Below, in pieces: positions 27,966-44,869 of a stretch of 64,000 bases of DNA. A program made the translations under genes and the position numbers. Within the stretch, counting starts at the first letter, position 1. Each line of letters begins with the position of its first letter. The notes below the pieces were generated by a model. That model made no database searches, was not told the DNA's origin, and saw only the letters and a program-made list of their open reading frames with translations. Source of the stretch: an uncultured delta proteobacterium (lineage in GTDB: Bacteria; Desulfobacterota; Desulfobacteria; Desulfobacterales; JAFDCJ01); assembly GCA_963769935.1 (NCBI GenBank), contig CAVYNY010000028.1, positions 32,001-96,000 of the forward strand, in the 5' to 3' direction.

Positions 27966-28967
27966 ATGAAACGTTATTTGACCATTGTGAGCCTTGTCAT
28001 TCTCACGGCCATGCTTCTCCTATCCAGCCCGGCACTTTCTCAAAGCAAGGTGATCGGCGTCTCTCATCTTTGGTTGGCAATGACTGGAATATTTATCTTT
28101 ATAATGGAATCAGCAAAACACTGAATCAATGGGCTACAAGGTTCTTAAGTTCAATGCGCAGGGAGATACTGCCAATCAGGTTGCCGGTATGGAAAACTTT
28201 ATCACCAAAGGGGTAGACGGCGCCATAATCGCCCAGGCAGGCCACGCCTTCAGGGATATCTCCCAAGCTTATGATAAGGCCGGCATTCCTTTAGTGGCAG
28301 TTGACATGGTCTTGCCCGGCCAGGTGGCCCATTTACTGCGACCAACGACTGGGAAGGCGGCGGCAAGATGGCGATGTTCCTCGTGAACTCGATGCGCGGA
28401 GAAGGCAAGGTTCTGATATTAAACCTGCCCAGTTGGGATTCAATTCGGCAACGTGCGGAGGCCGCCCGGCTCGTTCTGAAAGAGTTCCCCGGCATTAGCA
28501 TCGTCGCCGAACATGAGGTTGGTGTGCATGAGCCCATTGAGACCGCCAAAAGCATTACCAAGGCGACAATCCGTGCCAATCCCGATCTGAAGGGTATCAT
28601 CGCCACGTGGGGGTTGCCCGGAATCGGAGCTGCTCAAGCCGTTATGGAATTGGCCCTGCAGGATCAGGTGGCGGTCGCAACTTGTGATTTCGACAGGCCC
28701 CTAGTTCAATTGATCAATGACCCAAAGCCCCGCCGTTTATGGCTTACGGCCAGGACTCGTACACCGTGGGCGTTATTGCAGGCAAATTGATGGATCAGGC
28801 CATCAAGGCCGGTGACATTCAAAAGGCCAAGGCTGCATTGCCTCTGCTCAGCTTGGACCAACGCTTGTTATAGCTAACCGAGGCTTGGAGCAAGTATCGA
28901 CCGTGAAAGTCGGAACCCGAATCAGGCCTGGGACGAACTTTATAGCGACCAGAAAAAGCCCTGGTAA
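27966..28967 (+). pseudogene. Sugar ABC transporter substrate-binding protein, RbsB-like (frameshifted)
   Basis: AAGGAGG RBS, signal peptide, ENFITKGVDG, KAGIPLVAVD, ANPDLKGI in successive frames. Confidence 0.85.
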
Positions 28968-28976
28968 AAAATCGTC

Positions 28977-29031
28977 GAGACGGGGAAAGGGCTCATCCAC
29001 GATGTGACCCGCAAAGCCCCATCCCCGTCTC
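28977..29031 (+). other. Intergenic stem-loop after the binding-protein gene (mRNA stabiliser or attenuator)
   Basis: GAGACGGGGA...TCCCCGTCTC 10-bp inverted repeat. Confidence 0.5.
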
Positions 29032-29057
29032 CATAAAAACCGGAAAAAGCTGACGAA

Positions 29058-30553
29058 ATGAGAGATACGGTTATCAAGACGGTTGGGATATGCAAGAACT
29101 TCTCCAGCGTGACTGCTCTGGACAATTTGAGCTTTGAAATGAATGTGGGGGAAGTCCATGCGCTTCTGGGGGAGAACGGGGCAGGCAAAACGACCTTTGT
29201 GAAAATTCTCACGCGTGAGCTGCAAGAAGACTCTGGTGAGATTTACCTGCGGGATGAGGATGCCCGGGATTATCGGTCCGGCAAATACAGGACAAGGGTC
29301 TGGCCATGGTGCCCAGGCAATCAATCTGGTAGAAATGTTCACCGTGGCTATGAATATCATGCTTGGCATAGAACCGGTTCGGACAAGTTTTTAAAATGGA
29401 AAAATTACACGCCGAGGCCTGGTTCATCTCTCCCAAAATTACGGATCGGCTCGATGTCTGCTGCAAGGTCAGCGAATTGAGTGTCGCGGAAAAACAATCG
29501 GTATCCTTGGCAAGAGCCCTCGCAAGAAACCCGAAAGTCCTTATTCTTGATAAATCTACTGCTTCGCTTGGGGACCGGGTGACACGCGAATTTTCTTCAG
29601 TCCTGAGACAACTGAAAAAAGAGAGGACTTCCATTCTTTACATTTCAGATCGCCTGCAGGAAATTTTCGACCTGGCCGAAAAGGTCTCCGTGCTCGTGAT
29701 GGCAAAAAAGTAGGTACTTACTCGATCTCTGAAACGAACGAGGAAGAGCTGATCGGTCGATGATCGGCCAATCTCTGAAGGCAATGATCCCTAAAATAAA
29801 GGTTCCCATACCCAGGAAATACTGCGTGTCTGAGGATCCATATCAAGAATCGAAATGTAAGGGATGTTCCTTCACGGCAAAATCCGGTGAGATCCTTGGG
29901 ATCGTGGGCACTCTGTAAGCCGGTAAAAGCGAGATCCTGCATTCGATCTTCGGGCTGGAGCCCTTTCTGGCCGGCGAAGTTTTTGTAGATGGAAAAAAAA
30001 TGAATATAACCGAACCGCAGGCGGTGATCAGAATGGTCAGCCCTCATTCCTGAAGAGCGACGTGATGCGCTCGTCATGGAGCATCCATCGTGCGAAACAT
30101 CACTCTGGCGAGTTTGACAGCGTATGTTCGGTAGGGTGCGGGCAATCAGCTGTCTCTCTATTGAGGAATGTATGTGAATGCGGTAGGAAGAGAGCCCTTC
30201 GATAGCAGCTTTCTATGAAAAAAAATCTGTCGGCTCTCTCCAAGCGGTGGTAATTCAGCAGAAAACTGCTCAGATCGTGCTGGCTTAGCACTTTGGCTGA
30301 AGATTGATCCCCTGGATGAACCGAACGAAAGGAAATCTATGTCGGCGCAAGTAGCAAATATATGGACTAATCGGTACTCTGGTTAAGGATGGGGCGGCTG
30401 TCATATATGCCATGAACGAGATAAACGAAGCGTCTGAACTCTGTGATAAGGTGAGAGTGCTGCACCGGTGTCAAGTTGCGCGGAGCTTAAGTGTCCGGAA
30501 ACAAACAGGAAGAGCTTCTACTCCTGATGCTAGGCGGAAAGCGAGATGCATAA
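29058..30553 (+). pseudogene. Sugar ABC ATP-binding protein, RbsA-like (heavily frameshifted)
   Basis: GEVHALLGENGAGKTT, LSVAEKQ...NPKVLILD; second ABC domain garbled. Confidence 0.85.
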
Positions 30554-31506
30554 TAGCAATTGGCGTGAATTCATTTTGACCTGGGGGACCTTTTTGGCTT
30601 TTTGTCTGCTGTTTGTGGTTTTTGCGCTGTAGGCGATTCCCGGATTCGCCAGCTGGAGCAATGCCGAAAACATCTTCAAGCAGACGGCTGTACTCCTGCT
30701 AATGTCCTTCGGGTTGCTTTTGCCCATGATTGCAGGTGAAATCGATATCTCTTTCGGGGCAGTATCGGTATGGCAGGTGCTTTGTTCGCATCTTTGGCAG
30801 TCAACGGACAACCGGTTTTAGGTGCCGTGACGGCAATTGCCGTCTGTACGCTATTCGGCATTGTCAATGGTATTTTTATAGCGATCTTCAAGATGCACTC
30901 ATTTCTGGTGACACTTGCCACAATGTTCATCGGTATGGGGGCCGAGCGGGTTTACACCCACGGCTTTAATATCTGGGTAAAAGATCTGAAGCTGCTTGGC
31001 ATCTTTAACGGGTATGCCATTGGCGTGCCGAACAGCATCCTTATTATTATGATAGCCTTCGCGTTGCTATGGCTATGGGCGTCAAAACCCGCAGCGGAAT
31101 CTACATGCGGGCCGTCGGTGAAAACATTGAGGCGTCCCGCGAAACGGGAATAAATGTGGTTGCGATCAAGATCCTATCGTTTACTTTGGCAGGACTGTTC
31201 TACGGATTGGGGTCCATTTTGAACGTGCTCAGGGTTTCAGGCTCGTTGGCTTATTCCGGGCAGAATTTACTTCTCCCCACTATGGCCGTCTGCTTTATCG
31301 GCGCGACCATGTTTACGGCTCCGAAAAAAAATGTTCCCGGCAATCTGGTGGGGGCCTTTTTTCTGACTTTGATCACAAACGGACTGACCATTTTCGGTGC
31401 TGAATATTATTTTATTCCAATTTCTCACGGAATCCTGCTGCTAACCGCTGTGGTCGTAGCGAACCTCGGCAAAAGCGGGCTTAAAATAGAGCAAGTCAAA
31501 TTTTAG
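30546..31506 (+). pseudogene. Sugar ABC permease, RbsC-like (in-frame TAG plus frameshifts)
   Basis: GEIDIS, GIVNG...SFLVTLAT, AVGENIEASRETGI, GNLVGAFF. Confidence 0.85.
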
Positions 31507-31536
31507 CTCCTATCACAAGCCGGAAGGGAATCTGTA

Positions 31537-32495
31537 TTGAGCACTATACAACCGCCCTTAATTTAGGCCCGATCAAAGAGGCTTGGGGCCGAATAGGCAT
31601 TATCACCGTCTTTGTGGTTTTCATCGGCATAATCGCAACCATCGAGCCGCAGTTCCTGTCCCGTGGAAACCTGATGGACATCGTGACTGTGGCCTACATT
31701 TATCTTCTGATTTCCTTTGGTGAAACCTTCGTTATCGGTGCGGGGGAGTTTATTTTTCAGTTGGGCACATAGCGGGGTTTTCCTCAATCGTCAGTTCTCT
31801 GCTGATGAGCAATGCAGGCTTTCCGGTCTGGATAGCCGTTGTTCTGGGAATTTTAACCGGATTGATTCTCGGCATCATTAACGGATTTATTGTCGGCTGG
31901 CTGGGTGTGGATTCCTTTGTCACGACGCTGAGCACGATGTTTTTGATAACAGGGGCAAAATATTGGATGACAGGTGGAATGTCGGTCATGTACCTGCCCG
32001 GCACTTTCATGAACCTGGGAAGAGGCTGAATTATAAATGTCCCCTTCTCGTTCTTCATTCTGTTGGCGGGGTTTTTGTTCTCATATTTCACCTTCGGCAG
32101 GTTGCGTTCTGAAAGATGCATGTACATGACTGGAGGAAATATTCTGGCATGCTATTTATCAGGCATTTCGGTTCGATACTACACCTTGTTGGCTTTCATG
32201 TTAAGCGGATTTCTGAGCTCCATCACCGGTATTCTGCTGGCAGCACGCGCCGGACACACCATATTACCCTGGGTGAAGGTCTGTTGTTGGACGCCTTTGC
32301 CATGTCACTTCTGGGAGGGGTACTGGCGGAGGCCGCGCAAGTATCACCGGGACTCTTGCGGGCGGATTTTTCCTGATGATGGCCATCAATGGGCTCAACA
32401 TTCTCGGCGTCGATCCCGCTGCAGAATGGTTGATTAAAGGAGCGTTATTGATGATTCTCGTCATCGTTTCCATCAGGTTCAAGAAAGAAAGATAA
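31537..32495 (+). pseudogene. Second sugar ABC permease, RbsC-like (frameshifted)
   Basis: GIINGFIV...DSFVTTLS, TGGNILACYLSGI, AMSLLGG. Confidence 0.8.
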
Positions 32496-32510
32496 AGGCA
32501 GAGATTTTCC

Positions 32511-34075
32511 ATGGCTGAAAATAAAGAGTACGTGCTGGTTTTAGATGTCGGCACTGGCAGCGGCCGGGCGATCCTTTTCAAATTAAGTGGAGAGCCGATC
32601 GGATTCGAGGGCAGAGAATGGCAGCACAGCGTAGATCCCGATTTTCAGGGTGCTCTCGATTTTGATGTAAACACCAATTGGCTTTTGCTTAAGCGATGCA
32701 TCGAAGAGGTCATGCGCAAGACTTCAGCAAACGCCGATGAGGTGAAAGCGGTCAGTATCACCAGCATGCGCCACAGCATGGTCTGCTATGATCACCGCGG
32801 CAACCCGGTGGCGGCGTTCCCTAATGCGGATGCGCGTGCGGAAGCTGAGGTGAAATGGCTTATCAGCCAAGGATTGGCAAAACTAATCTACCGGATCGGC
32901 GGTGATTGGCCGAGTGTCCATGATGTGGCCCGGCTGCTCTGGCTAAAGAAAAACAAACCTGATTTGTTTAAAAGGATAGATCGCTTCACAATGCTCGAGG
33001 GCTGGCCCATTGTTCAACTTTGCCGCACCTATGTAACCGATCCCTCAAGCGCCTCCAGCAGCGGGCTATTTGATGTCGTCCGAAGAGGTTGGTCGGATGA
33101 GATCATCGAGGCATGTGGGCTGCCAAAAGGAATATTTCCGGAAGTCGCGGATGCCGGCCAAAAAGTGGGTGCGCTGAGCCGCGAGGTTGCCCGGGAACTC
33201 GGACTTTATGCAGGCCCCCGGTGATCATGGCCGGCGGGGACACGCAGTGCGGGCTCCTCGGTTCGGGTGTCGTGGAAGACGGACAGGCCGGTATCGTCGC
33301 CGGCACTTTCTGGTTGGATTGCGTCGTTTTGCCTCAAGCCATCATTGATGATCGTTGCGCATTGAGGACCTCCTGCCACATCATACCCGACAAATGGATC
33401 TTTGAAGGGGTCAGCTTCGTGGGAATGTTTACCCGTTGGTTTCGCGATGCCCTCTGCTCCGGGGAGAAGCAGCGTGCCGCCGAAGAAGGCACCGACGCCT
33501 ACAAAATCCTGGATGAAGCTGCATCACATGTCCCGGCCGGAGCATACGGAATTCAGGTTTGCATGTCCAATATCTTCAATGCCTCCAACTGGGTGCATAC
33601 CGCACCCATGTTCCTGAATTGGGATGTCTGGGATACAAGCAAATCGGCCAAGGAGGTATTCTACCGAGCTCTGTTGGAAAACGTCGCATATCAAACGCGG
33701 GGAGAATTCGGCAATATCCTGCGGCTGGCGGAGACCTCGCTCGCCGAAGTAGTCTTTTGTGGCGGAGCGGCCAAAAGCAGACTCTGGGCTCAGATTCTGG
33801 CAGATGTATTAGGCGCTGAAGTAAGGGTTCCTGAGGTCAATGAGGCGACAGCCCTGGGTGCGGCAATCTGTGCCGCAGCCGGTATAAATAGATATGCGAA
33901 CATGTCTGCGGCAGCACGCGCTATGGTAAAAGTGAATAGAGCGTTTGCGCCCAACCTGGAGAACGCCTCGGTTTACAGCGAAATGTACGCTCAGTGGAAA
34001 AAAATCTATGAACACATGCTTGTCCTTTCCACGGACGGACTTCTCAAACCGCTGTGGAAAGTGGCGGGGACCTGA
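32511..34075 (+). pseudogene. FGGY carbohydrate kinase, autoinducer-2 kinase (LsrK)-like; one frameshift near 33215
   Basis: LDVGTGSGRA, REWQH...DFDVNTNW, SMRH, NADARA, GGDTQ, GTFW, WVHTAP, LWKVAG. Confidence 0.85.
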
Positions 34076-34090
34076 AATTGGAAAGTAAAA

Positions 34091-35663
34091 ATGGAAAAAA
34101 ATGGAAAATTAATTTTGGTCCTTGATGTTGGGACGGGCAGCGGTCGGGCCATTCTGTTCGATGCCCGCGGGCAGCAAGTTGCTCTGAGTCAACGCGAATG
34201 GGTACACCCGAAACTGGAGCAGTCCCCCGGCGGATTTGATTTCGACACTTCAAAAAACTGGCATTTGTTGAAGAGCTGTATCCATGAAGTCCTGGCAGAA
34301 CCGGGCATCAATGCCGAAAACATCGCGGCTGTCAGCTCTGCTGCCCAGCGGCCCGGGATTGTCTGCTATGATGCCGCTGGCCAGGAGCTCTGTGCCTGGC
34401 CGTGTTTCGATGCCCGTGCGGACGGCGAAACCGAATGGATGATTGAGCAGGGCTACGGACCCAAAATTTACGCAATCAACGGAGACTGGCCGAGCATTCA
34501 CGAACCTGCCCGGTTATTATGGCTAAAGAAAAACAGGCCCCGGACTTTCGAGAAGGTTGCCGGAATAACGATGCTGGATGCATGGGTTTTGTACAAACTC
34601 ACCGGTCAATACGTGGCTGAACCAACGATTGCCTCCTGCAGCGGAATGTTCGATCTCAAGCTTAGAAACTGGTCTTATGAAATTTTAGACTTGCTGCAGC
34701 TGCCGACCGCAATCCTTCCACCGATGGCGGATACGGCATCTGTTATGGGACAGATTTCCACACAGGCCTCGGAAGAGACCGGGCTGCGTCCTGGAACCCC
34801 GGTCGTAGCAGGTGGCGGCGATACCCAACTTGCCCTACTTGGGGCGGGATTGACGGCAGCGGGGGCCGGCCTGGTAGCCGGCACATTCTGGGTTGAAGGT
34901 GTCATCGTGGATGCCCCGCTCATAGACAATGCCCGCAGGAAGACGAGGACCTTCTGCCATTGCTTGCCGGATAGATGGCTGATCGAGGCGGCCAGCTTCA
35001 GCGGCATCCTGGCGCGCTGGTTTCGGGATGTTTTCGCAACGGAAGAAATGGCGCAGGCCGCCAGGGAAGGTTCGAGCGCCTATGAAATATTGAACAGAGC
35101 CGCCCAAAAGGTTCCGCCCGGATCGAATGGTGTCCATGTCTGTTTTTCCTCCCTCTATAACAGCGGAAGGTGGATTCACACCTCACCGGCATTTATGGGG
35201 TGGGATGTATTTGATCTCGATAAATCCGGCAAGCCGGTATTTTGGCGCGCCATACTGGAGAACGCCTGCTATCTGGCCAAAGGCGAGTTTAATCTGATAA
35301 AAGATGTGTCGGGCGTTTCCTTAGAAAGTGTAGTATTTTGCGGCGGCGCCAGCAAGAGTTCTTTGTGGCGGCAGATCCTGGCCGATGTTTTGGGCATTGC
35401 GGTGCTGACGCCAAAAGTTGTTGAAACTACCTCCCTGGGAGCTGCCATGTGCGGTGCGGTGGTGCGGGCTTTACGCCGAGCTGAAGGGGGCGGCTGAAGC
35501 GATGTCTTCGCCCTGTCAGACCACGGAACCGAACCTTGGGAATACGCCGATATACGAGAGTGAATACCGGCGCTGGCTCGAGATAAGCAGACATGCAGGG
35601 GAACTTGTGGATAAAGGCATTCTGAGCCCGATGTGGGCCGCACCGGCAACCAGGGCCAGGTAG
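34091..35663 (+). pseudogene. Second LsrK-like FGGY kinase; frameshift near 35460
   Basis: LDVGTGSGRA, REWVH...FDFDTSKNW, GGGDTQ, GTFW, WIHTSP, MWAAPA. Confidence 0.85.
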
Positions 35664-35741
35664 CCCCTGTTCTGGCGCTGGTTTATAAAAACCTGCATCC
35701 GGTTTCTGCTTTTGAAATCGACAGATCCAAAAAGGCGAACC

Positions 35742-36307
35742 ATGAACGCGCAAACGAGAAAAGAGTTTTTGTCCAGGGCTTACAACCTCGGATTCGAATA
35801 TGAAAAGACTTACAAAGGATGCGCCCAGTGTGTAATCGCCGCGATCCATGACACGCTGAACATTAGAGATGACAGCGTGTTCAGAGCCGCAACCGGTCTC
35901 GCGGCCGGCGGTGGATTGACGGGAATCGGCGTGTGTGGAGGCTATGTCGGCGGATCGATGGTCCTGAGCCAGCTCTGCGGACGCGACCGATCCGATTTCG
36001 AAGACAAAGTACGGATCCGCCACCGGTCGTTCAACCTTACCAAGAAGTTGATCGATGTCTTCCTTGAGACATTCGGCACGCTCATTTGCAGAGACCTGCA
36101 GGTTCTTCGCTTCGGACGGCCCTACTACGTCAGAGATCCGGAGGAATATGCCAAGTTCGAGGAAGCAGGTGCGCATTTGGATAAATGCACGGATATAGTC
36201 GGAAGGGCGGCGCAAATCACTGTGGGAATCATTCTGGATGAGGGGCTGGTTAAGGTCGAACGTATTGATCACGCCCAATCAAAATCTCCGATCGGGCCGG
36301 ACCGTGA

Positions 36308-36311
<4 letters not shown>
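35742..36311 (+). CDS. C-GCAxxG-C-C family putative redox protein
   Basis: GCAQC...GLAAGGG...VCGGYVGG...FGTLICRDL...KC; intact. Confidence 0.88.
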
Positions 36312-37133
<822 letters not shown>

Positions 37134-37176
37134 ATGATGAAATCGAAATCTTGCACGAGCAGTGCAGGAGAAAAGA

Positions 37177-38223
37177 ATGCAAGCATTAGTGAAATACCGG
37201 ACGGGAGCCGGTTTTTGTGAAGTGAGAAAAGAGTCAGCAGAACCTGTTCCTCATGACAACGAGGTGCTCATCAGGATAAAAGCTGCGGGTATTTGTGGGT
37301 CAGATCTGCATTTTTATGACGGGAGTCTTACGACCTGTATCCCTCCGGTTATCCTGGGACATGAGTTTTCAGGTGTGATTGAGCAGGCGGGCAAAAATGT
37401 CATCAATTTCAAAAAGGGTGATCGGATAGTTGCCGAGGCGCATAAAGGAGGCTGCGGGCTTTGCGTTCACTGCCTGACGGGAAAAGTCGAGATCTGCGAT
37501 CATAAAAGAGCAGCCGGCTACAAAAGTGGACGGCTGCTTTGCGCCCTATCTCACGCTTCAGGAGTTCGCTCTGCATCGGATCCCGGAAAACCTGTCCTTT
37601 GAACAGGCAGATATGATCGAGCCCCTGGCAATAGGTGTCAAGGGGGTTCTCGAAAGGGCTCGGGTCGAACCCGAAGATTTTGTAGTGGTGTTGGGATGTC
37701 GGGCCGATAGGTCTTTTAGCCGCAGCGGCCGCACGCGCTGAAGGTGCCCGAAAGGTGCTTATCACAGGAACTGCTAAGGACGAGAAGGTCAGGCTTCCGC
37801 TTGCTGAGAAGATGAATATCGATTATGCCGTCAATTGCAATCAAGACGATATCGTCGCCAAGGTAATGCACTTAACCAAAGGAAGAGGAGCCGATCTGGT
37901 GGTCGATGCCTGTGGGGCGGAGCCGGCAGTTACATCAGGCTTTTGAGATGATTCGAAAAGAGAGGCAGGATCTGTGCAGTTGGTCACACCGGGAGAGAAA
38001 CCTTGGCCGTGCCGTGGGAAAAAGGCCTGATGAAAAGTATTCAGTTGATTTGGAGCCATAGCTCCAACTGGACCAGCTGGGAACGGGCTATTTCTATATT
38101 GGCGAACGGCAAGATCGATGTGGAGCCCGCTTATCTCCTACAGTTTTCCACTGCAAGAGTGGAAGAAAGCCTTTGAACTGCTCGGAGAATTTGGAGGCCG
38201 TCAAAATTCTGCTGGTGCCCTGA
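37177..38223 (+). pseudogene. Zn-dependent alcohol/polyol dehydrogenase, sorbitol-DH-like (frameshifted)
   Basis: GICGSDLH, ILGHEFSG, CGLCVHC...C, IEPLA. Confidence 0.88.
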
Positions 38224-38248
38224 TTTATTAATAAATCCATGTTGGATA

Positions 38249-39677
<1,429 letters not shown>

Positions 39678-39705
39678 CTAATCCGGGGGGGGGGGGGAAA
39701 ATCGT

Positions 39706-40425
39706 TTAAGGATTAATTTCAGGGTAGTCGATATTTCCCGGTTGCTGAATTAAAAAAAGGACGAGATCGGCAATGTTCTCAGGTTCAATCGGAGGGCCTA
39801 CACTGCATCGTTTGCCCATATAGGTGTCTTTAAGCAAATCGGGGTCCGGACCCCACCCGGGCAAATGGTGTGGACATGAACATTGTGCGGCCTGGCTTCG
39901 ATGGATAGACAGCGTGTAAACCCAAGCAGTCCATGCTTGCTGGCGCAGTAGGCTCCTTGATGGATGAATCCCTGGGTGGCTGGCGGAACTTGCGATCGCA
40001 ATGATCCTGCCCACTTTTCTGATCTTTCATTCTTTAAAAATGCACTTTGACACATAAGAAATGTTGCCGTGAGATTGGTCCGTAGAACCCGATCCCATTC
40101 TTCTATTTTAATTTCAGCGATCGGTTTTTCCAGAAAAATTCCGGCATTGCTAATAAGGACATCCAGGGAATCGAAATGTCGGAATACCACTTTTTAAGGA
40201 AGTCTCTACGGCAACGGGATAAATCATTAGATCACAAGCAACGGCGATGGCCTCACCCCCAACGGTGTGAACCTCATCGACCACTTCCTGCAGCTTATTG
40301 AGTTGAACGCGCCAGTAAGGCCAATTCGCATTTTTTCTCTGCCAAGCGCGATCGCTACGGTTTTGCCGATTCCACAGGCTGGCGCCGGTGATAATCGCTG
40401 TTTTCCCCCTAAGCATGTTTTCCAT
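39706..40425 (-). pseudogene. SDR-family oxidoreductase (frameshifted)
   Basis: IITGAS, SNAG, YCASK, ICPGGV. Confidence 0.85.
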
Positions 40426-40542
40426 CCTACTTTTTTAAAATAAAAAGTTTGATCAGAAAAAAACTGACTTAATAATCGGACTTAACTCATTTTGATAATC
40501 GGGTTAAATTAAAGAGCATAATCGATGCAGGAACCATGTCAA

Positions 40543-41512
40543 CTAGTAGCCGTACACGCCGCGCAAGATATTGGCAGGATCCGGTGGCGTGCATTCTTTT
40601 TCACTGTAATTTACAGCCACCTCAATCTCTTCATCCACCCGGATTTCTATTTTGCGATACTCTCCTTCGGTTAGAATGCCTTCCTTGATAAGCTCTCTTT
40701 TGAACCTTTTTATCGGATCTTTTTTTTCTCCTTTTTTTCTCTCTTCATCCGTACGGTAGATATCGGCATCACTGATGGAATGACCCGTCCACCGATGAAC
40801 CATGCTCTCTATTAGAGTAGGACCCTTTCCTGTGCGGGCCCTTTGGATAGCCTTACCTGTCTCCAGATAGACTTTTCGGACGTCATTGCCGTCTACGTTG
40901 ACACCCGGCATGCCGTAGCCTTTGGCCCGATCAACCAGCTTTTTCATTCCGGTCGCTTTTTCCACGGACACCGACATGGCATAGGCATTGTTGATCAGAA
41001 CGAAAATGACAGGCAGTTTGAGCGCCGCAGCTAAATTCAAACCTTCATGGAAATCACCTCTGTTGGCGGCTCCGTCACCAAAAAAACATACCATTACGGC
41101 GCCGTTTCCGTCCATCTTAAGGCCCAGGCCCACACCAACGGCTATGGGGATCACACTGCCGATAGGACCCGGCATCGGGATGATATGATGGGAAAGATCA
41201 CCGTACATATGAGAGCCTGCCGGAACTCTGCCCCCTTCACATCCCTGGTCTTTGGCATAATAACCGGCCATCAATTCTTTCAAAGGCATACCCTTCATCA
41301 ATTCCGGGTTCTTGCCGCGGTGGGACAGCGAGACATAATCTCTTTCTTCCAACCCATAGCAGACGCCGACGGCGGTAGCCTCCTGTCCGATTCCCGGATG
41401 ATGGTGCCCCCGCAAGCGTGCCTCTTTAAAAAGGGTGGTGATGCGTTCTTCAAGTCGTCTTCCCATCACCATCCAGTACGCCATTTCTTTTAGATCTTTT
41501 TGGTAGTTGCAT
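40543..41512 (-). CDS. TPP-dependent dehydrogenase E1 alpha (acetoin/pyruvate dehydrogenase-type); probable N-terminal frameshift
   Basis: GQEA, SHRG, GDGAAN...INN TPP motif, GHSISD. Confidence 0.9.
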
Positions 41513-41552
41513 ATGACTTCCTCTCTTATCGAACGTTCACCAAAGTCCTTCT

Positions 41553-42767
41553 TCAGTGCAATATCAAAAGGAGCGATTTAAGGCTTTCAAGTTTATCCCG
41601 CATTTCAGCAAAAAACCGAGAAGCAGGACCGCCATGGACCGCCCGATGGTCGTATGAATTGGTCACAAACATTTTTTTTCGAATTTCGATGGATCCGTCT
41701 ATTACGGCCGCAACCTCCCGCACGGCCCCGACACAAATGATCGTCGTCTGGGGAGGTACAATTATCGAAAATCCCGAATATAATCCCAGGGGGCCAACAT
41801 TCGAAATGGTAATGGTGCCATCCTGGACATCTTGGGGTTCAAGTTTGTCTTCGCGGGCCCTGCCAACCAGCGATTTCAATTCCAGGGCCAAATCTGCGAT
41901 CGATTTGTTCTGAACCTGTTTCACCACCGGCACAATCAGCTTTCCATTTGCATCAACCGCGATACCGATATTTAAATCATTTCGAATCACATAATGGCCT
42001 CCAAAACAATGCGCATTGATCTCAGGCGTAACACTGATTCCGGCCTGAATGGCTTTCATTATAAAAGGCATATAGGTCAGCCGCGGCATCGATGAATCAT
42101 TTTGGGTTTCGCCGATATAGTCCGATAATTCCGTTACATCGATATCAATTGATTGAGCATGATGTGGTATTTCGGTCCAACTGGCGGTTAAACGGTCGGC
42201 GATAACTTTACGCCAATGCGTGAGTTTCACGTTTTCGTCGCATCCGGATGTCCGTCGGGCCGCGAAATAAGACTGACTCAATTTGTTTATATTCCGGCTC
42301 GGACTGTTCTTTTTCTGCCTGAATAATTTAACAACATCTTCTTTCGCGATCCGACCCCCTGGTCCGCTGCCGGAGGAGATCAGCGACTAGATCAATACCT
42401 TCTTTTTTGGCGAAGGTCTTGGCCAGCCTGCGATATCCTTTTTTTTTTGGTATTCACGATCTTGAATGATAGTTTCATCTGAGTCTGGTTTATCGGAGTA
42501 TTCTGGTTTATTTTACCTTCAGATACGGCTTCAGTTTCGGCATCAATAATTCCGAAAACAGTCCGACCGGAACACATCGCCAACCTGACATCGTATTTCC
42601 GTTAAAAGCCACTGCCCGGCGCAGGTATTTCGACGTTGACCTTTTCGGTTTCAATGCAATATGGGCTCTCCTTCTTGAACGCTTCCCCGATTTTTTTAAA
42701 ACCATACTAAGATGGTTGCCTCTGCAATACCAAACCCTGTTTCTGGAACTTTGATTTCGTGCAACAT
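41553..42767 (-). pseudogene. Dihydrolipoamide acyltransferase E2 (frameshifted)
   Basis: N-terminal lipoyl domain (MLHEIKVPETG), GSGPGGRI binding domain, GTITISNVG, YDHRAVHG. Confidence 0.88.
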
Positions 42768-43773
42768 TATGAATCTCTCCCTCTGCCTAAACAATTTAAA
42801 ACCGCCTTAACGATCTTTTGCGCATTCGGCAGATAAAATTGTTCCATTTCCGGAGAAGAGGGAACTGGACAAAAAGGGGCCCCCAGACGTTTTACGGGTG
42901 CTTCCAGAAAATCTAGGCCTTTGTCCGCCAAAACGGCTGCGATTTCACCACCGAATCCACCGGTAACAGGCGCCTCATGGACAATGACGACTTTGCCCGT
43001 TTTTGCCACTGATTGGAGTATAATGTCTTCATCCAACGGCAGTATGGTTCGAGGATCCAATACTTCTGCCTGGATTCCTTTTTGCTCTAAAATCTCAGCT
43101 GCTGCAAGCGCCTGTTGCACCATTGCCGACATAGCGATGATGGTTACATCGTCACCCTTCTCTCTTGATATCGCCTTTGCCGATAGGGACGATGTAATCG
43201 TCTTCGGGAACGGACCCTTTAATCTTTTGTAAAGGAACTTGTGCTCCAAGAACCAGCACAGGATCGTTGTCGCGCACGGCCGCCTTTAAGGAGCCCCTTG
43301 GCATCACCCGGGGGTGGAAGGCAGCACGACCTTTAGGCCGGGAACTCCGGCAAACCAACTCTCGAAGCACTGGGAATGGTGCATCCCCGCTCCCACACCG
43401 CCTCCATATGCTGTCCGATAAACAATCGGAACATCGACCGCCCCTCCCAGCGACCAGCGCATCTTGGCCGCACAATTTACGATCTGCTCGGAAGCGATTG
43501 TCAAAAAATCTCCAAACATCAGTTCTACTATCGGCCGGTACCCTATAAGGGCAGCCCCCACTGCGCATCCGGCAATGCGCAGATTCCGATAGAGGAGCAT
43601 CGATGACGCGGTCACCGCCAAATTCGTCAAAAAGGCCGCGCGTGGCCCCAAAAACGCCCCCCCCCGCCATAACCAACCGCAATGTCCTCACCAATTATAA
43701 AAACCTTGCTGTCTCTGGCCATTTCCTCTCTGAGGGCTTCATTGACTGCATCCACATAATATAAATCCTTCAT
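42767..43773 (-). pseudogene. TPP-dependent dehydrogenase E1 beta (frameshifted)
   Basis: [10 protein letters not shown]...GEDIA, HHSQ, EHKFLY, DPRTILPLD. Confidence 0.9.
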
Positions 43774-43824
43774 TTTCACCTCACTTCTAGGAGTAAATAG
43801 GTGGCATATATAAATCACGTGAAC

Positions 43825-43882
43825 TTGTCAGCATGTAATATATGCATGACAATGTTTACAATTCATATATGTTTCTTGTCAA
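43825..43882 (-). promoter_or_regulatory. Promoter (TTGACA) with downstream palindromic operator for the dehydrogenase operon
   Basis: TTGACA at 43882-43877; TTGTCA-GCAT...ATGC-A-TGACAA inverted repeat at 43825-43852. Confidence 0.5.
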
Positions 43883-44082
43883 GAAAGAGTCAGGCAAGGA
43901 TTAGGTTGTTTTCTGTTGATGATGCAAGAAAATGTGACCGATAATTAAGAAAGAGATGGGCTATAAGATGGAATTTTCTTGAAGGATTGTACTATTTGGT
44001 TTTTATTTTTTGCAGATCAAAATAGAAAGTCTTTAGTTTATAAAAGCTCTGGCTTAAATTTTGTTTGAACATTGTTTTGAGA

Positions 44083-44869
44083 TTAGCCAAGCGATCTTTC
44101 AATGGAAGATTTCAACATACAGTTGGGACCGCTAAACCTGGCATCAAAATAGTCAACAGCTTGTCCTTCAGAGTCATACGCAATTCCTTTCATTCGAAGG
44201 CATGGCTCCCACAATTCTACCTGAAGTAACGGTGCGTCCATAAGTGACATCCTAACAGCCATAACCTCCCTCTCAGCCTTGACAATTTCCAAATTGTAAT
44301 ACTTATATAAAAGGCTATAGAGATCCGCTGAAAAACTTTCCTTATTTAAGCAACTTTGAAAATCTGGCAAAAGGCAAATATTGGTCAACAATAATTAGAG
44401 GTTTTTTATCTATGAAACGTAAGCGCTTTAAATGAATAACGGGATCGCCGTGATTGATTCCTAAACCATTTGAAACCGAGGCCAATGAATTTTCCTTTGA
44501 TCTCTCAAGCAAGTTGGTACTATGTTTTCGGTCGAGTTTATTCACCATCTCTCCGAAACTCATAAGTGTGTTCATGTACACCAAAGACACGCCTTCCAAC
44601 TTCTTAACAATTGTTCCTTTCCCTCGAATCCTTTTTAGAGAGTCGTTTTTAATTAATATGTTGATAGCCCGATTTACAGTCGGACGACTAACTTCGAGTT
44701 GCGATGAGATTTCTTCCTCGCTAAAAAAACGGCTCCCAGGTTTTAAAACTTTGCTGGCAAGAAAATGTTCCAGGACATAGGCAACCTGATAATAGAGCGG
44801 CAAATCACTTTCGATTATATAAGACCTGTACTGCGATAAATTATTATTCATATCATCATATGTTTTCAT
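44083..44869 (-). pseudogene. GntR-family regulator, HutC/UTRA subfamily (one frameshift)
   Basis: PLYYQV...SEEEISSQLEVSRPTVNRA...RIRGKGT; UTRA-like LKRLRFIDKKP. Confidence 0.88.

What the first reader, a model, noticed from the sequence alone, without database searches (positions are those of the whole stretch)
27966..44869. Candidate new catabolic pathway: twin LsrK-like kinases plus an acetoin-dehydrogenase-type complex, without LsrF/LsrG
Seen: sugar ABC importer, two LsrK-like kinases, C-GCAxxG-C-C protein, SDR and Zn-dehydrogenase, converging on E1beta-E2-E1alpha-SDR-E3 and a GntR regulator. No lsrF, lsrG or lsrR is visible. Known: LsrK phosphorylates DPD (AI-2), a vicinal diketone; AcoABCL-type complexes cleave acyloins to acetyl-CoA plus an aldehyde. 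Inference: phospho-DPD or a related deoxy-ketose/polyol is converted to a 1-deoxy-pentulose-5-phosphate-like acyloin and cleaved to acetyl-CoA plus glyceraldehyde-3-phosphate. This would be an alternative AI-2 or rare-sugar route in an anaerobe. It is my best candidate for an undescribed system, but the substrate is a hypothesis.
Basis: partly seen in the sequence, partly recalled or inferred. Interest (0 to 1): 0.72.

Follow-up and report, generated by a model that had tools for sequence, protein, structure and literature searches.

The report
Sugar-splitting dehydrogenase cluster, probably not AI-2
A Desulfobacterales-like bacterium carries a conserved two-operon cluster that likely imports an unknown small sugar or polyol, phosphorylates it with two divergent relatives of the AI-2 kinase, and would split it with an unnamed, sugar-associated branch of the pyruvate/acetoin dehydrogenase family; the substrate is unknown and is probably not AI-2.

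Summary
All listed genes are there. The frameshifts are most likely long-read errors. The 12 genes from binding protein to E1-alpha recur with matching accession spacing in a second Desulfobacterales genome.

Both halves have the right chemistry but fail membership tests. The kinases are sister paralogues outside the canonical LsrK clade (AU p=0.0004). They have lost the pocket signature kept by 186 of 213 relatives. The binding protein is not LsrB. LsrF exists elsewhere in the genome, as in 26 of 40 relatives, 25 of which show no such kinase.

E1 is neither AcoA nor PdhA by clade or motif. It is an unnamed beta-E2-alpha clade with a sugar kinase nearby in 9 of 23 loci (other E1s: 1 of 57). 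A distant Desulfobacteraceae genome has the same converging layout with non-orthologous LsrK-like kinases. However, 14 of 22 clade genomes show no such kinase.

Best reading: an uncharacterised ketose-phosphate-cleaving, acyl-CoA-forming route for an unknown sugar; AI-2 about 8%. An earlier scan note (e1-9732043) saw a similar kinase-E1 pairing in an archaeon.

The parts
27966..29000 (+). Sugar ABC substrate-binding protein (Peripla_BP_4), frameshifted; end approximate; not LsrB
29058..30560 (+). Sugar ABC ATPase, frameshifted; end approximate
30560..31506 (+). ABC permease 1 (BPD_transp_2), frameshifted; start approximate
31530..32495 (+). ABC permease 2 (BPD_transp_2), frameshifted; ends approximate
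32511..34075 (+). Kinase K1, LsrK-related FGGY kinase, pocket signature M-R-H-L-V, one frameshift near 33215
34091..35663 (+). Kinase K2, paralogue of K1 (46-52% identical), pocket signature Q-R-P-V-A, one frameshift near 35455
35742..36311 (+). C-GCAxxG-C-C family protein
36308..37133 (+). SDR1, short-chain dehydrogenase, frameshifted near its end
37162..38231 (+). Zn-dependent dehydrogenase (threonine/polyol dehydrogenase-like), frameshifted
38249..39653 (-). E3 dihydrolipoyl dehydrogenase, frameshifted
39700..40425 (-). SDR2, frameshifted; end approximate
40543..41514 (-). E1 alpha of the unnamed beta-E2-alpha clade (motifs HRGK, GSHMYGD, NRGDFHE, HRWTGHSISD); start approximate
41553..42780 (-). 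E2 acyltransferase with lipoyl domain and catalytic DHR, N-terminal part frameshifted; start approximate
42767..43773 (-). E1 beta (GAGMHHSQ), frameshifted
44083..44869 (-). GntR/UTRA regulator, frameshifted

Best explanation
The two converging operons likely form one catabolic unit for an unknown small sugar or polyol, probably not AI-2, in which a phosphorylated ketose would be split by the thiamine-dependent E1 into an acyl-CoA and a sugar-phosphate fragment. Shown: gene identities, conserved order, tree positions and neighbourhoods. Inferred steps: (1) ABC import; (2) SDR1 and the Zn-dehydrogenase set the keto group or interconvert epimers; (3) K1 and K2, with different pockets, phosphorylate two related ketoses at the terminal CH2OH; the loss of the polar Glu94 and Gln278 hints at a less hydroxylated or substituted substrate; (4) E1 cleaves the C-C bond beside the keto group and loads the two-carbon unit on lipoyl-E2, which gives acetyl-CoA (1-deoxy-ketose) or glycolyl-CoA (ordinary ketose); (5) E3 passes the electrons to NAD+. 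SDR2 may handle the aldehyde fragment. The complex would do the job that the thiolase LsrF does behind most other LsrK-like kinases.
For: Matching gene spacing in a second Desulfobacterales genome: binding protein UCD76981, K1 ..85, K2 ..86, E1alpha ..92, at 80-87% identity (only 4 of the 12 genes looked up). Of 22 same-genus genomes, the only one with the kinase is also the only one with the E1 clade, 26 kb apart on one contig; its GntR orthologue (76%) sits beside K1-ZnADH. G048, labelled Desulfobacteraceae (E1alpha 69%), has two non-orthologous LsrK-like kinases, a C-GCAxxG gene, a 59% ZnADH and a sugar ABC system around the same E1 operon, with the kinases converging on it about 11 kb away. 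One of its kinases shares K1's Leu278/Val310 and K2's Gln92, a signature found in 4 of 213 rows. An SDR1 homologue (66%) and C-GCAxxG homologues (44-46%) lie next to the clade in spirochaete-type loci L026, L016 and L020. An FGGY kinase lies in 9 of 23 clade loci against 1 of 57 other E1 loci, with both the window kinase and an HMM as query. Other neighbours include transaldolase and transketolase (L008), Pta (L009) and butyrate kinase (L010), DeoC, RpiB, TIM and BMC genes, and L-ribulose-5-P 3-epimerase. LsrF-like genes lie in 43 of 80 kinase loci but in none of the 6 where E1 directly follows the kinase; no LsrF was found in G048, G052 or G061.
Against: 14 of 22 genomes with this E1 clade show no LsrK-like kinase at E<=1e-90, including the two closest outside the genus (91-93% E1alpha) (these are MAGs). 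The FGGY kinases in those 9 loci are other subfamilies, 23-38% identical to K2. In G001 the modules are separate operons with different transporters. No convincing shared operator was found. No residue-level test separates ketose cleavage from 2-oxo-acid decarboxylation; the fold is ordinary E1alpha. Several spirochaete loci pair the clade with thiolase and 3-hydroxyacyl-CoA dehydrogenase, and L022 with a tartrate-dehydrogenase-like gene and branched-chain-type ABC genes. The six kinase-E1 operons are one kinase clade with a different E1, so they count as one event.
Confidence: 0.52

Rival explanations
1. Same pathway, but E1 is an oxidative decarboxylase of a hydroxylated or phosphorylated 2-oxo acid (for example hydroxypyruvate or a 2-oxo-tetronate phosphate), releasing CO2 and a hydroxyacyl-CoA.
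For: The fold and nearest structures are decarboxylating E1s. D-2-hydroxyacid dehydrogenases lie in 52 of 80 LsrK-like kinase loci and in G048. Butyrate kinase beside L010 suggests an acyl group larger than acetyl. The clade has an invariant Lys and Arg (HRGK, NRGDF) that could bind an anion.
Against: The window cluster has no 2-hydroxyacid dehydrogenase. Its importer is of the ribose/monosaccharide type. The sister E1 clade, with no sugar neighbours in 6 of 6 loci, shares HRGK and NRGDF.
Confidence: 0.22
2. Two separate modules sit side by side in a sugar island: the kinases feed ordinary pentose-phosphate metabolism and the E1 complex serves another substrate.
For: 14 of 22 clade genomes show no LsrK-like kinase. 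G001 keeps the modules 26 kb apart. Integrase fragments lie at 20.5 and 25.7 kb. Sugar-rich genomes hold many FGGY genes (16 matches in G000).
Against: The same converging layout occurs with non-orthologous kinases in G048. Three non-kinase genes of the plus operon recur beside the clade in distant genomes. Such kinases are rare in the phylum: 3 of 400 genomes had a match, all at 34-37% (at most 4 candidates scored per genome).
Confidence: 0.16
3. One reading: AI-2 (DPD) is imported, phosphorylated, reduced to a 1-deoxy-pentulose 5-phosphate and cleaved to acetyl-CoA plus glyceraldehyde 3-phosphate.
For: LsrK is the best model for both kinases, and the intact K1 orthologue P0005 passes the NCBIfam cut-off (537.8 against 528). 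K1 keeps 7 of the 10 modelled LsrK pocket residues. The fate of AI-2 in bacteria without LsrF is stated as open in PMC7828210.
Against: The grouping with canonical LsrK is rejected (p-AU 0.0004). Glu94, Gln278 and Ile310 are kept in 5 of 5 canonical LsrKs and changed in both kinases. The K2 orthologue fails the cut-off (465). The binding protein has no LsrB hit. No LsrR or clear LsrG was found. (S)-DPD would give L-glyceraldehyde 3-phosphate (inference).
Confidence: 0.08

Closest known systems
Lsr system for AI-2 uptake and breakdown (LsrACDB, LsrK, LsrG, LsrF, LsrR)
   Same: Sugar-type ABC importer plus LsrK-related FGGY kinase; a predicted CoA-dependent C-C cleavage of a phosphorylated ketone (LsrG/LsrF steps as in PMC8016206 passages).
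   Different: Two kinases outside the canonical clade with changed pockets; binding protein not LsrB; GntR instead of LsrR; an E1/E2/E3 complex instead of LsrG/LsrF; LsrF-family gene unlinked, on another contig.
Acetoin dehydrogenase complex AcoABCL
   Same: Separate E1 alpha and beta subunits, lipoyl E2 and E3; predicted non-decarboxylating cleavage of an alpha-hydroxyketone (reaction recalled, not from a call).
   Different: Separate clade (99% support against 98% for AcoA), 35-41% identity, motifs HRGK/PMPGPIG/HRWTGHSISD instead of HRGH/GANGIVGGG/YGHFEGD, gene order beta-E2-alpha, sugar-kinase neighbours, no AcoX or AcoR.
QncN/QncL and NapB/NapD of quinocarcin and naphthyridinomycin synthesis
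   Same: Thiamine enzymes that take a two-carbon unit from a ketose phosphate (seen as a passage on NapB/NapD in PMC7570522; the lipoyl step of QncL is recalled, the primary paper was not held).
   Different: Biosynthetic, hands the unit to a carrier protein; no catabolic E2/E3 or kinase; no sequence comparison was made here.
D-apiose transketolase pathway (AplK, AptAB)
   Same: ABC importer, FGGY kinase and two-subunit thiamine enzyme that cleaves a ketose phosphate (recalled; paper not held).
   Different: Transfers the unit to an aldose phosphate, with no lipoyl E2/E3; the apiose-bound structure 5IBQ (ligand recalled) is only a weak match to this binding protein (E 6e-6).
Pyruvate and branched-chain 2-oxo-acid dehydrogenases (PdhABCD, BkdAB)
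   Same: Same fold (TM about 0.9) and complex architecture.
   Different: About 33% identity, below the TIGR03181/03182 cut-offs, separate clade; the genome has other candidates for these roles.

Membership tests
LsrK (AI-2 kinase) | NCBIfam NF008187 cut-off of 528 bits | tested here: inconclusive
   Intact K1 orthologue 537.8 (passes), K2 orthologue 465.4 (fails)
LsrK (AI-2 kinase) | In the clade of kinases from lsr operons | tested here: not met
   5 canonical rows form one clade (100); K1/K2 lie apart; p-AU 0.0004 (quick tree, long branches)
LsrK (AI-2 kinase) | Pocket signature Met92-Arg93-Glu94-Gln278-Ile310 | tested here: not met
   186 of 213 rows have it; K1 is M-R-H-L-V and K2 is Q-R-P-V-A. 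The pocket is from a model (PMC8016206) and from GlpK positions (PMC3245297)
LsrK (AI-2 kinase) | Phosphorylates (S)-DPD | not testable with these tools
   needs an assay
Lsr system | LsrB-type binding protein | tested here: not met
   Intact orthologues P0274 and P0276 do not hit NF011937 at 1e-5; the E. coli control scores 700
Lsr system | Linked lsrR, lsrG, lsrF | tested here: not met
   None in the cluster; lsrF-family gene on C16; no LsrR hit; one weak LsrG hit
Acetoin dehydrogenase AcoABCL | E1alpha, E1beta, lipoyl E2 and E3 in one operon | tested here: met
Acetoin dehydrogenase AcoABCL | E1alpha inside the AcoA clade with AcoA motifs | tested here: not met
   the four AcoA references are assigned by annotation or context, not by assay
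Acetoin dehydrogenase AcoABCL | Sister relation of the clade to AcoA | tested here: inconclusive
   p-AU 0.096
Acetoin dehydrogenase AcoABCL | Cleaves acetoin | not testable with these tools
   needs an assay
PdhA / BkdA | Family cut-off and clade | tested here: not met
   273 against 394 and 261 against 411 bits; tree

The most novel reading that the evidence does not exclude
The beta-E2-alpha clade is a new catabolic class of lipoamide-dependent ketose-phosphate dehydrogenase: an oxidative counterpart of phosphoketolase that turns a ketose phosphate directly into acetyl- or glycolyl-CoA, NADH and an aldose phosphate. It serves several sugar-kinase modules in anaerobic Desulfobacterota and Spirochaetota, and E1-type complexes have replaced LsrF behind LsrK-family kinases several times.
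Probability: 0.35. Interest if true: 0.78.

Novelty: new variant of a known kind. Interest (0 to 1): 0.5.

Why it matters
Dehydrogenase complexes of this architecture are known for 2-oxo acids and acetoin. One that cleaves sugar phosphates in catabolism would add a route from sugars to acyl-CoA, in sediment and soil anaerobes not usually treated as sugar users, and could be useful in pathway engineering. The result also warns that 'autoinducer-2 kinase' labels on these environmental proteins do not show AI-2 use. The intact orthologues make every step testable.

Tried and rejected
Shared operator for the two operons: only weak 16-17-base matches, not convincing.

True pseudogenes: judged unlikely.

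The C16 LsrF as partner of the kinases: unlikely. The family is in 26 of 40 relatives, only 1 of which has the kinase, and here it sits with CCG/4Fe-4S genes.

Substrate from homology: PDB matches of SDR1, the Zn-dehydrogenase and the binding protein are generic. The fold search gave only PDH/BCKDH.

P0054 (kinase) and P0163 (clade E1alpha) share a longest-contig length of 74,141, but no accessions were returned, so they are not counted.

Expression: no RNA holder listed.

Literature: searches returned 0 papers; searches listed none on this cluster (listings only). The library lacks most subscription journals. Four papers were not held (the PNAS ketose paper twice, the apiose paper, the LsrF paper). 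No supplements were read.

No complex prediction was run, since E1/E2 binding is not in question.
Full report
Setting. The window is G000:C28:32001-96000. The closest named proteins come from Desulfobacterales MAGs, so the host is most likely of that order. Most genes are in pieces. Near-identical short-read contigs from other runs carry the missing base at the breaks they cover: three runs at 28720 and at 28852, one run at the K1 break (the table shows 12 indel rows and omits 14). Orthologues are intact. I treat the breaks as long-read errors, although this is among the worst 1% of the genome for long-ORF coverage.

The cluster is conserved. In a Desulfobacterales MAG the binding protein, K1, K2 and E1alpha have accessions UCD76981, 85, 86 and 92. 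These are the offsets 0, 4, 5 and 11 of the window's gene order, at 80-87% identity; I looked up only these 4 of 12 genes. Locus L087 has K1-K2-SDR1-ZnADH without C-GCAxxG. Among 22 same-genus genomes, one (G001, 77% complete) has the kinase and the same one has the E1 clade. There K1-ZnADH converges on the GntR orthologue, and the E1 operon lies 26 kb away with its own FGGY kinase and ABC system.

The kinases. LsrK is the best model (E. coli LsrK structure E 6e-98). In a tree of 62 rows, five kinases from lsr-type loci form one clade (support 100). K1 and K2 are sister paralogues on long branches elsewhere, and holding them with canonical LsrK is rejected (p-AU 0.0004). At the modelled DPD pocket (PMC8016206 passage) and the GlpK specificity positions (PMC3245297 passage), 186 of 213 rows read M-R-E-Q-I. 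K1 orthologues read M-R-H-L-V (6 rows) and K2 orthologues Q-R-P-V-A (4 rows) (some rows are near-duplicates). The catalytic aspartates are kept. The intact K1 orthologue still just passes the LsrK cut-off, and the K2 orthologue does not. The binding protein is not LsrB. An LsrF-family gene exists on C16, but the family occurs in 26 of 40 relatives, only one of which has the kinase. The natural signal is (S)-DPD (PMC7828210 passage).

The dehydrogenase. E1alpha has at least 120 relatives at 62-94%. A scan of 185,579 species genomes kept the best 80 of 111 loci; 23 of them, from 22 genomes (Desulfobacterota, Spirochaetota and two other labels), are at 58% or more. They form one clade (support 99), apart from AcoA (98) and Pdh/Bkd; a sister relation to AcoA is not rejected (p-AU 0.096). 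The order beta-E2-alpha holds wherever the locus is long enough. G000 has three other E1s. An FGGY kinase lies in 9 of 23 clade loci, 0 of 6 sister-clade loci and 1 of 51 other E1 loci; any sugar marker lies in 14, 0 and 4. The permease models were built partly from these loci, but the kinase count is the same with the window kinase as the only query. The loci are related, so these counts are not independent tests. Other neighbours are transaldolase, transketolase, Pta, butyrate kinase, DeoC, RpiB, TIM, L-ribulose-5-P 3-epimerase and lipoyl synthase, but also thiolase with 3-hydroxyacyl-CoA dehydrogenase. The fold is ordinary E1alpha.

Are the two halves linked? For: G048 has two LsrK-like kinases from other branches, a 2-hydroxyacid dehydrogenase, C-GCAxxG and a class II aldolase, converging on RpiR-E1beta-E2-E1alpha-SDR-ABC, with a 59% ZnADH nearby. 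One of its kinases shares pocket changes with both K1 and K2. SDR1 and C-GCAxxG homologues lie by the clade in three further loci. Such kinases are rare in the phylum (3 of 400 genomes, all at 34-37%), yet 2 of the 8 clade genomes assigned to it have one on the E1 contig. Among 80 metagenome kinase loci (best 80 of 545), 43 have an LsrF-like gene, and 6 have E1 directly behind the kinase with no LsrF; those 6 are one clade with another E1 type. G052 and G061 add two more E1 types. Against: 14 of 22 clade genomes show no LsrK-like kinase, the clade's usual partners are other FGGY subfamilies, and no shared operator was found. An earlier scan note on an archaeon (e1-9732043; unchecked) concluded that LsrF lay just off-window there. 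That prompted; no LsrF was found in G048, G052 or G061, which are MAGs.

Verdict. This is a real, conserved and apparently uncharacterised sugar or polyol catabolic cluster; my ten literature searches found no description, in a library that lacks most subscription journals. It works like Lsr at the front and like Aco at the back, but it is a member of neither by the features tested. I put ketose-phosphate cleavage to acyl-CoA at 0.52, decarboxylation of a hydroxy-2-oxo acid at 0.22, chance adjacency at 0.16 and AI-2 at 0.08. The more general finding is the sugar-associated beta-E2-alpha E1 clade. The substrate and reaction are inferred, not shown. Papers were seen as keyword passages (PMC3245297, PMC8028047, PMC2663715, PMC7570522, PMC11387542, PMC5983913, PMC8016206, PMC7828210). 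The Aco reaction, the QncL lipoyl step and the apiose pathway are recalled.

Noticed in passing
G000:C16:385140-391217 (L190): LsrF-family thiolase gene, unlinked to any LsrK, between CCG/4Fe-4S (heterodisulfide-reductase-like) genes and a Zn-dehydrogenase plus GntR. The family is in 26 of 40 relatives, which suggests an AI-2-independent role in Desulfobacterales. A roughly 90%-identical inverted copy sits at the contig end (possible assembly artefact).
   Followed up: partly
L089-L164 (metagenome loci): A widespread cluster of VOC/glyoxalase protein, D-2-hydroxyacid dehydrogenase (52 of 80 loci), LsrK-like kinase with the full LsrK pocket and LsrF-like gene (43 of 80, about 60% to E. coli LsrF), often with an LsrR-like regulator and DUF4432. 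It looks like a non-canonical Lsr-type pathway in which VOC may replace LsrG.
   Followed up: partly
L100:8739-14788; L102, L105, L108, L109, L116: Operon of VOC, class II aldolase/4-epimerase-like gene, LsrK-like kinase with intact pocket, E1alpha, E1beta and E2, with no LsrF in the loci (short loci show only part of it). This is a better candidate than the window for AI-2 breakdown through an E1 complex, since an epimerase could fix the L/D problem.
   Followed up: partly
L183:7053-12496 (G061); L185:2693-10088 (G052): LsrK-like kinases beside further E1 types: a fused alpha/beta E1 in the same operon (G061), and a glycyl-radical enzyme plus kinase converging on E1alpha-E1beta-VOC (G052).
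   Followed up: partly
L011, L017, L027: The beta-E2-alpha operon follows aldehyde dehydrogenase, RpiB, DeoC and flavodoxin genes; in L011 and L017 also BMC shell, TIM and RnfC-like genes, resembling a sugar-phosphate microcompartment locus.
   Followed up: no
L212, L213: Rhizobial plasmid E1/E2 genes (42-44% to the window E1alpha, another clade) beside a glucitol-type PTS and a sugar-binding regulator: another sugar-linked E1 group.
   Followed up: no
window:20536-26126: Two integrase fragments, a CHASE-domain gene flanked by 82%-identical direct repeats 2114 bases apart, and low GC (0.39-0.45) upstream of the cluster, as in a genomic island.
   Followed up: no
window:39680-39700: A long run of C between SDR2 and E3, probably a read artefact.
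   Followed up: no
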